64,000 nucleotides of DNA, from the UHGV virus genome UHGV-0036853; one strand, given 5' to 3'. The position numbers were made by a program. This document shows, in pieces, positions 1 to 3,000 of this stretch (its first letter is position 1; the number at the start of each line of letters is the position of its first letter). Source of the stretch: a virus.

Positions 1-3000
1 TCAAAGAAGAAGTGTTCGGAATCACGCATTACCGGCGTAGCACCAGAAACTACCGATTTCGGCTCGATCAGTTCAGTAGGGCTGTATGTCGCGCCGCAGA
101 CTTCACAGTTATCGCCGTATTGATCCGGCGCTTTACATTTCGGGCATGTGCCTTTCACAAAACGGTCCGGCAGGAACATGCCTTTTTCCGGGTCGTACAG
201 CTGAGAGATGGTGCGATTTTTAATAAAACCGTTCTCTTTCAGGCGAGTATAGATAAGCTCAGACAACTGACGGTTCTCTTCGCTGTGCGTCGAGTGATAG
301 TTGTCATAGCTGATGTTAAAGCCTGCGAAATCAGTCTGGTGTTCCTGACTCATTTCGCCAATCATCTGCTCCGGTGTGATACCAAGCTGCTGTGCTTTCA
401 GCATGATCGGCGTACCGTGGGCATCGTCGGCACAGATGAAATTAACCTCGTGGCCGCGCATTCGCTGGTAACGAACCCAGACATCAGCCTGGATGTGCTC
501 CAGCATATGGCCGAGGTGGATTGAGCCGTTAGCGTACGGCAGCGCGCACGTCACCAGAATTTTCTTCGCGACTTGGGTCATAGTAGGCATTACTTCTTTG
601 TAGTGAAAAGGGGCTTGATAGTAACAAAATGGCCTTATGTCTGCCATGTGATAACAGCATTTCTCATAAATGATTAAATGTCGTAGCTGGAGTACACTAC
701 AAGGCGACAATTGCGCAAATTAAAATAAAGGAGACGGGATGAGCGAGTCCAAATCGCCGGATGCCCTGAGAGCAATGGTAGCCGGTACGCTGGCTAATTT
801 TCAGCACCCAACCCTGAAACACAACCTGACTACGCTTAAAGCGTTACACCATGTTGCGTTGATGGATGACACACTGCATGTCGAACTAATCATGCCTTTC
901 GTGTGGAATAAGCCTTTTGAAGACCTGAAAGAGCAATGTAGTGGTGATCTGCTCCGTATCACTGGCGCAAAGGCTATTGACTGGAAGCTGTCGTACAACA
1001 TTGCCACGCTTAAGCGCGTCAAAAACCAACCAGGCATTAATGGCGTTAAGAATATTATCGCCGTAAGCTCAGGCAAGGGCGGTGTAGGCAAATCGTCCAC
1101 AGCAGTAAACTTGGCACTGGCGTTGGCTGCTGAAGGTGCGAAAGTTGGTATTTTGGATGCCGATATCTACGGTCCATCAATTCCAACCATGCTGGGCGCG
1201 GAAAACCAACGTCCAACCTCACCGGACGGTACTCACATGGCACCTATCATGTCTCATGGCCTGGCAACCAACTCTATTGGTTATCTGGTCACCGACGACA
1301 ATGCAATGGTGTGGCGTGGACCGATGGCCAGCAAGGCGCTGATGCAGATGTTGCAGGAAACACTGTGGCCTGATCTGGACTATCTCGTTCTCGATATGCC
1401 GCCGGGCACTGGTGATATTCAATTGACGCTGGCGCAGAACATTCCTGTAACTGGTGCGGTTGTGGTAACTACGCCGCAGGACATCGCGTTGATCGATGCG
1501 AAAAAAGGCATTGTGATGTTCGAAAAAGTCGAAGTGCCGGTACTGGGTATCGTCGAAAACATGAGTGTGCATATTTGCAGTAACTGCGGTCATCACGAGC
1601 CAATTTTTGGCACCGGTGGCGCACAGAAGCTGGCCGAGAAATACAACACGCAGTTGTTAGGCCAAATGCCACTTCATATCTCTCTTCGTGAAGATCTGGA
1701 TAACGGAACACCAACCGTTATTAGTCGTCCAGATAGCGAATTTACGGCTATTTATCGTGACCTCGCAGATCGCGTTGCTGCCCAAATGTATTGGCAAGGT
1801 GAAGTAATACCTGGCGAAATCGCATTCCGCGCAGTGTGATAAAAAGGTGGTGCAATGCACCACCTAAACAGTTCTCCTACATCACAGGACAATCATCAAA
1901 CTCGCCACTTCTTGCGTCGTTGATAATGTGAGTGATCACACCAAACACGGCATTGCTGCCCGTGCATCCATCATCATCCTTTGGCAATGCTTCCTTCTTA
2001 CCAGTTCTTAAATCCTCCAGATGCTGACGTGGATACTTCCGGTATCTTTTTACGCGATATTCCCCATCCAGAGCACATACAAGAAGAGATCCATCAACAG
2101 GAGTGAGTGAGGAATCGACCACCAGCAATGCACCCTGCAATATTCCCTCACGATGATGGCTATCAGCTGCCCTCAAGAAGTAGGTCGCTGAAGGATGTCT
2201 AATTATCTGCTGATCAAGAGAAATACGGCTCTCAGCATAATCCGCCGCAGGAGAAGGGAAGCCCATAGCGTTTTCACCTCAAAATACTGTTTATTCATAC
2301 AGTATACATTAAAGAAGCACCTTTGGTGCAAACGCGTTATGTACATCAACCACCGCTGATGATTTTGTGCGCTTTGCTACTATTCATCACCAACGGATCA
2401 GCGTAACCTCGTTGCCAATCAGTTAATAAGGAATTAGCTATGCCTGCCCGCATTCCTCTCGATCCTGTATTGCCCAAAAATTTTGACAGCACTCCTAACG
2501 AGAAACGCTCCAAAGCCCAGTTGGACGCCTGGTGGGACCATCCCTATGGAGTTACAGAACCTGACGGGAAAATTGTTGTTTATTGTCTGAATGGTGGCGC
2601 GTGGGACCGCCCATCCGTGCTTGGTTTAGTAGATAACTATGATGAAGCCTGTGAACTTGCCGAAAGACAGCAGGCAAGCTGGGTAAAAACACGGTCTGAA
2701 CCGACATTCATGTTTTCAAAAGAACCACCATTTATACTGGCGAGGATGCCGCAGCGACCGGATCATCAACAAGAAATTGTTGCTGAATTTTCCTCAAGGG
2801 ATGAGATGAATCTCTTCTCATTAATGCAGGAAGAAAGAGAGCACGTCGAGGTGTCTCCAACTCTCGATCATAACCGGATGAACCTGGCCCAACTCGCCCG
2901 GTACAGCAAAGAATTGGAGATGTCTATTGCCCGGCTTGAAAACGAAAAAGCCGCTATCCAAGCCCAGCATGAAGTTATTCTGGACCGGATTAGAGAAATG

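What the first reader, a model, noticed from the sequence alone, without database searches (positions are those of the whole stretch)
1877..2306. SOS-controlled UmuD'-like gene that starts at the UmuD self-cleavage point
The ORF begins MGFPSPAADY, the position where UmuD is processed to UmuD', so the product would be constitutively in the activated form. A consensus-like LexA box (TACTGTTTATTCATACAGTA) sits just upstream. No umuC partner follows; apbC is only 38 bp beyond the stop. This mirrors the HumD arrangement of phage P1 as I recall it.
Basis: partly seen in the sequence, partly recalled or inferred. Interest (0 to 1): 0.5.

Follow-up and report, generated by a model that had tools for sequence, protein, structure and literature searches.

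The report
Phage humD gene: ready-made UmuD'
This is humD, a known phage gene under SOS (LexA) control whose protein is a UmuD mutagenesis factor made already in its activated, shortened form; here it sits on an SSU5-like phage-plasmid of E. coli, and it is ordinary and already annotated in public records.

Summary
A 129-codon ORF (1877-2266, minus strand) starts MGFPSPAADY, the residue equivalent to Gly25 of E. coli UmuD. An in-frame TGA lies five codons upstream, so no N-terminal arm can be added. A 20-bp LexA box (2285-2304) ends 18 nt before the ATG. No umuC-like gene is in the 64 kb.

The protein matches NCBIfam's HumD equivalog model end to end (217.7 bits, cut-off 120). It is 91% identical to phage P1 HumD and 99% identical to the homologue in the SSU5-like phage Cyrano. 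RefSeq names the same gene on near-identical E. coli plasmids "HumD family translesion DNA polymerase". The P1 GenBank record annotates the matching LexA site as controlling lxr and humD.

All 80 close relatives examined keep a CTGT-N8-ACAG box 36-39 nt upstream of the start. dN/dS is about 0.05.

Two side observations may be new:
- UmuD' homologues that are made already truncated have mostly lost the catalytic Ser/Lys pair.
- A subset of them, including this one, carries a conserved acidic C-terminal tail (EFDDCPVM) that resembles the SSB C-terminal tip.

The parts
1877..2266 (-). humD coding sequence (129 aa plus stop). A UmuD'-type protein that starts at the position of UmuD Gly25, keeps Ser36 and Lys73 (UmuD Ser60 and Lys97) and ends in the acidic tail SGEFDDCPVM.
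   Evidence: ORF list. NCBIfam HumD equivalog 217.7 bits against a cut-off of 120, positions 1-129 of 129. Pfam Peptidase_S24. PHROG 811 UmuD-like. PDB UmuD' 1UMU at E=7e-23. Foldseek top hits are UmuD'. dN/dS is 0.05 against P1.
1880..1909 (-). Codons 120-129 (SGEFDDCPVM), a C-terminal extension that E. coli UmuD lacks. It is conserved in HumD-type proteins and predicted to be flexible.
   Evidence: Alignments. Distribution among representative proteins. pLDDT is about 52 with no secondary structure. E. coli SSB ends MDFDDDIPF.
2275..2280 (-). Shine-Dalgarno sequence GAGGTG, 8 nt before the ATG.
   Evidence: Read directly from the sequence. Conserved in P1.
2279..2281 (-). In-frame TGA five codons upstream of the ATG, which rules out an N-terminal extension.
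   Evidence: Read directly from the sequence. In 78 of 80 close relatives an in-frame stop lies 2-8 codons upstream of the start.
2285..2304 (.). LexA (SOS) box: TACTGTATGAATAAACAGTA when read on the gene's strand. It ends 18 nt upstream of the humD ATG and 135 nt upstream of the divergent lxr ATG.
   Evidence: Unique in the window at 3 or fewer mismatches to the consensus, with 0 of 100 shuffles matching. The homologous site is annotated as a LexA site in P1. Present in 80 of 80 relatives as 18 sequence variants, always with CTGT and ACAG intact. Also present in N15, pAEv1818, yong1 and Cyrano despite unrelated flanking sequence.
2317..2329 (-). Small GC-rich hairpin (GCACCAAAGGTGC) just upstream of the LexA box. 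Its role is unknown.
   Evidence: Terminator-like scan. Conserved in P1.
2440..3024 (+). lxr homologue (194 aa), the P1 'LexA regulated function' gene. It is transcribed divergently from humD and shares the LexA box.
   Evidence: 94.4% nucleotide identity to P1 lxr over 2440-2960. P1 annotation. No Pfam or NCBIfam family match. PGAP calls it 'DNA-binding protein'.
1845..1865 (.). Hairpin (AGGTGGTGCATTGCACCACCT) followed by a T-run, between the convergent humD and apbC genes. It is the likely humD terminator.
   Evidence: Terminator-like scan: 9-bp stem with 6 GC pairs.

Best explanation
The gene is humD, an orthologue of phage P1 humD, carried here by an SSU5-like phage-plasmid of E. coli. It encodes a UmuD' equivalent that is translated directly in the shortened form. 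It therefore skips the RecA*-stimulated self-cleavage that activates chromosomal UmuD.

In undamaged cells, host LexA should bind the 20-bp box at 2285-2304 and repress humD, and probably the divergent lxr as well. After DNA damage LexA is cleaved and humD is transcribed. A HumD dimer then pairs with host UmuC, since the element has no umuC of its own, and with RecA to form a Pol V-like translesion polymerase. This would give lesion bypass and mutagenesis without the usual delay.

Shown here: the gene structure, family membership, fold, conservation of the LexA box, purifying selection, and absence of umuC. Taken from work on P1 HumD and inferred for this allele: LexA repression, binding to UmuC and RecA, and complementation of UmuD'.
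For: - Family: full-length HumD equivalog match. 90.7-92% amino-acid identity to P1-type HumD and 99.2% to phage Cyrano.
- Existing annotation: RefSeq calls the same gene on pAVS0968-B 'HumD family translesion DNA polymerase'.
- Start point: alignment puts Gly2 on UmuD Gly25 with no arm, and a TGA lies five codons upstream.
- LexA box: unique in the window, annotated in P1, and kept in 80 of 80 relatives and in distant homologues with unrelated flanks.
- Selection: dN/dS 0.05 against P1, median 0.048 over 76 relatives.
- Fold: the model's core has pLDDT above 90 and its best PDB matches are UmuD' and the UmuD-RecA complex.
- Function in P1: the P1 record says HumD 'functionally complements E. 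coli UmuD''. [quoted passage not shown] PMC9603915 calls humD a LexA-regulated SOS gene.
- No partner polymerase: no UmuC-like sequence in the window. In phage records, umuC-like genes sit next to full-length umuD types, and none of the 60 best UmuC matches is a P1, N15 or SSU5-like record.
Against: - Nothing was tested experimentally on this allele. It differs from P1 HumD at 12 of 129 residues.
- The consensus scan found no sigma-70 promoter on either strand between 1700 and 2600, so the transcription start and its overlap with the LexA box are unresolved.
- From my memory of McLenigan et al. 1999, which was not readable here, HumD is poorly expressed and complemented well only from a high-copy plasmid. 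Its natural contribution to Pol V activity may therefore be small.
- The conserved acidic C-terminal tail, absent from UmuD', is not explained by a simple 'UmuD' substitute' role.
Confidence: 0.8

Rival explanations
1. HumD works mainly as a modulator and not as a polymerase subunit. Its flexible acidic tail (EFDDCPVM), which resembles the SSB C-terminal tip, would dock onto pockets that bind the SSB tail, or onto RecA filaments or the replisome. There it could redirect or damp host SOS, recombination or replication-restart functions to the element's benefit. Any Pol V complementation would be secondary.
For: - The tail is conserved down to about 40% identity. It occurs in 14 of 35 homologues that lack the N-terminal arm, against 1 of 46 that have the arm, and that one has an aberrant N-terminus.
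- It is predicted to be disordered.
- E. coli SSB ends DFDDDIPF. In both proteins there are 7 residues from the Phe to the C-terminus, and some homologues end in ...DDTPF or ...NLPF.
- Most homologues that lack the arm have lost the catalytic Ser and Lys, so the scaffold is evolving away from UmuD.
Against: - The P1 record states that HumD complements UmuD'.
- The resemblance is a short motif only, and the proline is shifted by one position relative to SSB.
- No binding data exist, and nothing on this was found in the literature held here.
- 21 of the 35 homologues that lack the arm have no tail, so the tail is not essential to the class.
Confidence: 0.12
2. The gene encodes a normal full-length, self-cleaving UmuD from a non-ATG start or a shifted frame upstream, and the ATG at 2266 is only an internal methionine.
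For: None found. Two of 80 relatives (L041, L049) have a longer open stretch upstream with possible alternative starts.
Against: - An in-frame TGA lies at 2279-2281, and none of the four codons between it and the ATG is a start codon.
- The upstream sequence is the LexA box and an intergenic region 96% identical to P1.
- 78 of 80 relatives have a stop 2-8 codons upstream.
- The overlapping ORF in another frame (2203-2349) has no similarity to the UmuD arm.
Confidence: 0.01
3. The gene is a decaying remnant of a umuDC operon that lost its 5' end and umuC, and it has no function.
For: It is a solitary gene with no umuC. No consensus promoter was found.
Against: - dN/dS is about 0.05 at dS 0.9 against P1.
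- The length of 129 codons and the start are intact in all 80 relatives.
- At least 485 viral contigs encode a relative, and 808 of 5426 complete E. coli genomes hold a match to the 1.1-kb region that contains humD.
- The LexA box is preserved across unrelated upstream contexts.
Confidence: 0.02

Closest known systems
Phage P1 HumD (AAQ14181; McLenigan et al. 1999, J Bacteriol 181:7005; P1 genome record AF234173)
   Same: Both are 129 aa and start MGFPSPAADY. Amino-acid identity is 90.7%. They share the LexA box position, the Shine-Dalgarno sequence and the divergent lxr gene, and the intergenic DNA is 96% identical. Neither has a umuC. Both have the C-terminal tail.
   Different: The host element is an SSU5-like phage-plasmid, not P1. 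The coding DNA is only 84.5% identical to P1 but 96.6% identical to phage Cyrano, so the locus is a mosaic joined near the humD start. Downstream lies a convergent apbC-metG pair in place of phd-doc.
E. coli UmuD / UmuD' (Pol V accessory subunit; PDB 1UMU, 1AY9, 8GMT)
   Same: Same S24 fold, with about 44% identity over the globular domain. Ser60 and Lys97 equivalents are kept as S36 and K73. A LexA box lies upstream: the umuDC box is TACTGTATATAAAAACAGTA.
   Different: There is no 24-residue N-terminal arm and no Cys24-Gly25 cleavage site. The score is below the NCBIfam UmuD cut-off (86.6 against 110). HumD has an extra 10-residue acidic tail. It is not in an operon with umuC.
N15 gp26, phiKO2 gp23, HK140 gp28 and HK639 UmuD-like proteins
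   Same: All are made without the arm (start MGFPSPA), are solitary, and carry the tail ...SGEFDDCPV(L). Identity is 64-70%. N15 has a LexA box that starts 34 nt upstream of the ATG.
   Different: They sit in other phage backbones (linear plasmid prophages and lambdoid phages). The catalytic Ser is replaced by Thr. In HK140 the gene follows dinI and a small ORF, and no LexA box was found in the 120 nt upstream of the start.
Phage and plasmid umuDC-type operons (Salmonella phage Oslo, Cronobacter phage ENT39118 and Klebsiella phage ST846-OXA48phi9.2, seen here; mucAB and rumAB, from general knowledge)
   Same: They are mobile-element copies of the Pol V accessory subunit in the same protein superfamily.
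   Different: They encode a full-length UmuD with an arm and an intact Ser/Lys pair, with umuC immediately adjacent. They need RecA*-mediated cleavage for activation.
SSB C-terminal tip (E. coli SSB ...MDFDDDIPF)
   Same: Both are acidic, flexible C-terminal peptides with Phe-Asp-Asp, then a proline and hydrophobic last residues. In both, 7 residues run from the Phe to the C-terminus.
   Different: The proline is one position earlier, and the last residue is Met, Ile or Leu where SSB has Phe, except in a few homologues. This is a resemblance only. No binding was tested.

Membership tests
HumD family (NCBIfam NF051876, equivalog) | Full-length match to the family model above its curated cut-off | tested here: met
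   217.7 bits against a cut-off of 120; protein residues 1-129 on model positions 1-129 of 129.
HumD family (NCBIfam NF051876, equivalog) | Translation starts at the residue equivalent to UmuD Gly25, with no N-terminal arm and no cleavage site | tested here: met
   Gly2 aligns with UmuD Gly25. An in-frame TGA lies five codons upstream.
HumD family (NCBIfam NF051876, equivalog) | LexA operator directly upstream (SOS control) | tested here: met
   The sequence feature is present and conserved. Actual LexA binding cannot be tested with these tools.
HumD family (NCBIfam NF051876, equivalog) | Solitary gene with no cognate umuC in the element | tested here: met
   tblastn with UmuC found nothing in the window. 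Pfam scans of 22 of the 24 ORFs of at least 250 aa found no Y-family polymerase domain. None of the 60 best UmuC matches among phage records is a P1, N15 or SSU5-like record. The roughly 45 kb of the element outside the window was not read directly.
HumD family (NCBIfam NF051876, equivalog) | Functionally replaces UmuD' (binds UmuC and RecA*, restores SOS mutagenesis) | not testable with these tools
   Known for P1 HumD only, from the P1 record note and PMC7092418.
UmuD, Pol V autoproteolytic subunit (NCBIfam NF007621) | Match above the curated cut-off | tested here: not met
   86.6 bits against a cut-off of 110.
UmuD, Pol V autoproteolytic subunit (NCBIfam NF007621) | N-terminal arm carrying the Cys24-Gly25 self-cleavage site | tested here: not met
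   The arm is absent.
UmuD, Pol V autoproteolytic subunit (NCBIfam NF007621) | Catalytic Ser60 and Lys97 pair | tested here: met
   S36 and K73 align with Ser60 and Lys97. Whether they are catalytically competent is unknown. Among homologues that lack the arm, only 6 of 35 keep the Ser and 14 of 35 keep the Lys.
Peptidase S24 / LexA-like fold (Pfam PF00717) | Domain match and fold | tested here: met
   39.8 bits against a cut-off of 23.3. Foldseek top hits are UmuD' 1UMU and 1AY9 (TM-score 0.78 by target length), followed by LexA C-terminal domains.
LexA repressor (TIGR00498) | Match above the cut-off and an N-terminal winged-helix DNA-binding domain | tested here: not met
   29 bits against a cut-off of 110.95. 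Only the C-terminal domain region matches (model positions 91-166), so there is no DNA-binding domain.

The most novel reading that the evidence does not exclude
UmuD' homologues of phages that are made already truncated (the HumD type) may be a distinct functional class and not just UmuD' substitutes. They have largely discarded the Ser/Lys autoprotease pair. A subset, including this gene and P1 HumD, has gained a conserved, disordered acidic C-terminal peptide (EFDDxP followed by two hydrophobic residues) that imitates the SSB C-terminal tip. That tail could dock HumD, or HumD2-UmuC, onto proteins or surfaces that bind the SSB tail, or compete with SSB for them. This would give phage-directed access of translesion synthesis to stalled forks, or interference with host repair.
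Probability: 0.15. Interest if true: 0.55.

Novelty: already known. Interest (0 to 1): 0.17.

Why it matters
As a finding it confirms that a reader working from sequence alone correctly recognised a textbook oddity: a phage copy of UmuD made in the pre-activated form under LexA control. It adds nothing new about humD itself. The gene family has had a curated model and experimental characterisation since 1999, and this exact gene is annotated on many E. coli phage-plasmids.

It has modest practical relevance. A match to the 1.1-kb region that contains humD occurs in about 15% of complete E. coli genomes (808 of 5426), mostly on plasmids of P1-like or SSU5-like size. These elements also spread resistance genes. 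A pre-activated Pol V cofactor could raise damage-induced mutagenesis in their hosts.

The side observations, loss of the catalytic pair and an SSB-tip-like tail, would be worth a short experimental follow-up.

Tried and rejected
- Upstream start: I looked for an alternative start or a frame that could supply the N-terminal arm. This is rejected by the TGA at 2279-2281, and the overlapping other-frame ORF 2203-2349 is unrelated.
- Promoter: the consensus scan of 1700-2600 found nothing on either strand. My hand inspection found only weak candidates (a TATACT -10 overlapping the box with a poor -35), so I make no promoter claim. P1's 'PhumD' is itself only a prediction and lies inside lxr.
- Primary papers: I tried to read McLenigan 1999 and Lobocka 2004. 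They are not held, so statements about HumD-UmuC/RecA binding and low expression rest on my memory of the abstract plus the P1 record note and PMC7092418.
- Tail classification: a regular-expression approach missed several proteins and was replaced by an alignment-based count.
- Phage SSB tail: I checked whether the element's own gp32-like SSB has the same tail. It does not; it ends ...EGLDDLLRELDSL.
- Literature on the tail: searches for an SSB-tail link to UmuD or HumD found nothing relevant.
- lxr and the two neighbouring ORFs: no Pfam or NCBIfam match.
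Full report
**1. Observation**

The minus strand of 1877-2266 holds a 129-codon ORF that begins at an ATG with MGFPSPAADY. Reading upstream in frame gives GCT, AAC, GAA, GGT and then TGA at 2279-2281. No ATG, GTG or TTG can therefore extend the protein. A GAGGTG Shine-Dalgarno sequence lies at 2275-2280.

The 20-mer TACTGTTTATTCATACAGTA is at 2285-2304 and ends 18 nt before the ATG. On the gene's strand it reads TACTGTATGAATAAACAGTA. It is the only site in the 64 kb within three mismatches of the LexA consensus, and none of 100 shuffles produced one. The bare CTGT-N8-ACAG core alone would not be significant, with 2 found against 1.1 expected.

apbC (739-1839, plus strand; ApbC equivalog, 759 bits) is convergent with the ORF. 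Its end lies 37 nt from the ORF's stop, and a hairpin followed by a T-run sits between them at 1845-1865.

**2. What it is**

- **Family.** The protein matches NCBIfam NF051876, 'HumD family translesion DNA polymerase' (an equivalog model), from end to end at 217.7 bits against a cut-off of 120. It falls below the cut-offs for UmuD (86.6 against 110) and LexA. Pfam reports Peptidase_S24 and PHROGs reports 'UmuD-like protein'.
- **Closest relatives.** It is 99.2% identical to the homologue in phage Cyrano, 90.7-92% identical to HumD of P1, P7, RCS47, SJ46 and D6, and 64-70% identical to N15 gp26, phiKO2 gp23 and the HK140 and HK639 proteins.
- **Structure.** The best solved-structure matches by sequence are UmuD' entries 1UMU and 1I4V (E about 1e-22), with Gly2 on UmuD' residue 1, which is UmuD Gly25. 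An AlphaFold2 model has mean pLDDT 81 and a core above 90. Its best Foldseek matches are UmuD' (1UMU, 1AY9) and the UmuD-RecA filament complex 8GMT.
- **Catalytic residues.** Alignment with authentic E. coli UmuD shows the 24-residue arm is missing, while Ser60 and Lys97 equivalents (S36, K73) are kept.

**3. Context**

The window belongs to an SSU5-like phage-plasmid of E. coli of about 108-115 kb. The best matches are phages PhiR41_1, CMS-2020a and Cyrano and plasmid pAVS0968-B.

The window encodes the following functions:
- a DnaE-like Pol III alpha subunit, a DnaB-like helicase, a primase and a ligase;
- a RecA homologue and a gp32-like SSB;
- ribonucleotide reductase and thymidylate synthase;
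- a Rep protein and an integrase-family recombinase.

It has no Y-family polymerase. tblastn with E. coli UmuC finds nothing in the window or in any fetched locus.

On pAVS0968-B, PGAP already names the same gene 'HumD family translesion DNA polymerase', flanked by apbC-metG on one side and a 'DNA-binding protein' on the other. That flanking gene (2440-3024, plus strand) is the homologue of P1 lxr, 'LexA regulated function'. The P1 record annotates the homologous 20-mer as a 'LexA binding site in the regulatory region of lxr and humD', and says HumD 'functionally complements E. coli UmuD''.

The locus is a mosaic. Relative to P1, the intergenic region is 96.0% identical and lxr is 94.4% identical, but the humD coding sequence is only 84.5% identical, against 96.6% to Cyrano. 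Similarity to this P1 record stops at the 3' end of lxr. Cyrano has an unrelated upstream region without lxr, yet it still carries a LexA box in the same place.

**4. Comparative support**

- In 80 of 80 viral contigs that encode a relative at least 91% identical, a CTGT-N8-ACAG box starts 36-39 nt upstream of the ATG. There are 18 sequence variants in several unrelated upstream contexts, and the CTGT and ACAG arms never change while the spacer does.
- 78 of the 80 have an in-frame stop 2-8 codons upstream of the start.
- More distant homologues also start at the cleavage-site position and have a LexA-type box that starts 34-41 nt upstream. These are N15 gp26 (67% identity), Aeromonas phage pAEv1818 (50%) and Hafnia phage yong1 (43%). 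The pAEv1818 box has CTGA in one arm.
- dN/dS is 0.05 against P1 at dS 0.9, and the median is 0.048 over 76 relatives. The gene is under strong purifying selection and is not a remnant.
- A match to the 1.1-kb region occurs in 808 of 5426 complete E. coli genomes, with 712 of 854 matched places on plasmids. The exact apbC-humD-lxr arrangement occurs in 11 genomes.
- Among phage records, umuC-like genes lie directly beside full-length umuD types, as in Oslo, ENT39118 and ST846-OXA48phi9.2. None of the 60 best UmuC matches is a P1, N15 or SSU5-like record.

**5. Mechanism**

The best-supported reading is the one established for P1 HumD. LexA represses humD through the box at 2285-2304. SOS induction relieves the repression. 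HumD needs no RecA*-mediated cleavage, so it dimerises and joins host UmuC and RecA to form a Pol V-like translesion polymerase.

Shown here are the gene anatomy, family membership, fold, operator conservation, selection and the lack of umuC. Inferred from P1 are LexA binding, the UmuC and RecA interactions, and complementation (P1 record note; PMC7092418; PMC9603915; and my memory of McLenigan et al. 1999, which could not be read here).

One weak point is that no consensus sigma-70 promoter was found, so where transcription starts relative to the box is unknown.

**6. Beyond the finding**

A search of 1.84 billion representative proteins gave 3403 hits. I aligned the near-complete ones and sorted them by whether they have an N-terminal arm.

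| Feature kept | No arm (6 or fewer residues before the Gly25 equivalent), n=35 | With arm (UmuD type), n=46 |
|---|---|---|
| Catalytic Ser | 6 | 41 |
| Catalytic Lys | 14 | 43 |
| Acidic C-terminal tail | 14 | 1 |

The loss of the catalytic pair fits a protease site that is no longer needed. The window's protein and P1 HumD are among the minority that keep both residues.

The tail has the form ...ND(A/M)R-x-x-E-F-D-D-x-P followed by two hydrophobic residues. The single arm-bearing protein that has it shows an aberrant N-terminus. E. coli UmuD ends 10 residues earlier. The tail is predicted to be flexible, with pLDDT about 52 and no secondary structure.

The tail resembles the SSB C-terminal tip, MDFDDDIPF. 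Both have Phe-Asp-Asp, a proline and hydrophobic last residues, with seven residues from the Phe to the C-terminus. Some homologues end in ...EFDDTPF or ...EFHDNLPF. This is a resemblance only. I found nothing on it in the held literature, and the element's own gp32-like SSB has a different tail. I give it as the most novel reading not excluded, at low probability.

**7. Verdict**

The feature is an orthologue of a characterised, curated and routinely annotated gene, so its novelty is 'already known' and its interest is low.

The refinements are these:
- the host element is SSU5-like, not P1;
- the lxr-operator-humD module is a recombinant shared between the two kinds of phage-plasmid;
- the downstream neighbours differ from P1;
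- the family-wide loss of the catalytic pair and the SSB-tip-like tail are small leads for experiment.

Noticed in passing
window 47231-47250, and about 47303-47333: A second LexA-type box, CACTGTATAAGTAAACAGTA, lies 27 nt upstream of the ATG (47203) of an integrase-family ORF at 46100-47203 on the minus strand. The Klebsiella SSU5-like phage pJN2-26 keeps it as TACTGTGTTTATATACAGTA, although the region is only about 74% identical overall. In CMS-2020a (SCU-175) one arm reads CCAG. Next to it is a conserved inverted repeat, AATGATTCCATAC-N5-GTATGGAATCATT. This may be an SOS-controlled recombinase together with its site or operator.
   Followed up: partly
window 1880-1909 (HumD residues 120-129): HumD ends in a conserved, predicted-flexible acidic tail, SGEFDDCPVM, that E. 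coli UmuD lacks. It occurs in 14 of 35 UmuD' homologues that lack the N-terminal arm, against 1 of 46 that have the arm. It resembles the SSB C-terminal tip DFDDDIPF.
   Followed up: partly
representative proteins P0001-P0150 (relatives, not the window): UmuD homologues that lack the N-terminal arm have mostly lost the catalytic pair: Ser is kept in 6 of 35 and Lys in 14 of 35. Homologues with an arm keep Ser in 41 of 46 and Lys in 43 of 46. The window's HumD and P1 HumD keep both (S36, K73).
   Followed up: yes
window 1880-3024 compared with L001 (P1) and L002 (Cyrano): The locus is a mosaic. The lxr gene and the operator region are 94-96% identical to P1, but the humD coding sequence is 84.5% identical to P1 and 96.6% identical to the SSU5-like phage Cyrano, whose upstream region is unrelated. 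A recombination joint therefore lies near the humD start, which indicates module exchange between P1-like and SSU5-like phage-plasmids.
   Followed up: partly
window 1-1839, and L003 16949-20240: The phage-plasmid carries host-type housekeeping genes next to humD. These are a full-length apbC (739-1839) and a methionyl-tRNA synthetase gene, metG, which runs off the window's start in this window. Both are conserved in Cyrano, PhiR41_1 and pAVS0968-B.
   Followed up: no
window 32945-34018 (minus strand): The element encodes its own RecA homologue (Pfam RecA, 145.7 bits), along with a DnaE-like Pol III alpha subunit (38018-41536), a gp32-like SSB (35292-36314), a DnaB-like helicase, a primase and a ligase. 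Whether the phage RecA can serve HumD/UmuC-type translesion synthesis or LexA cleavage is an open question.
   Followed up: no
phage records H39-H47 (Stx2-converting phages, mEp234, Sf101): Several lambdoid and Stx phages match only residues 45-128 of HumD, at about 54% identity. The matches often lie in unannotated DNA near a record end or attP and often come in two pieces. They look like truncated or frameshifted humD remnants.
   Followed up: no
L086 (phage HK140) 910-1890: In HK140 the humD-type gene abuts the end of a small ORF (gp27) and lies next to a divergent dinI homologue. This groups two modulators of RecA filaments and the SOS response in one phage module. No CTGT-N8-ACAG box was found in the 120 nt upstream of humD there.
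   Followed up: no
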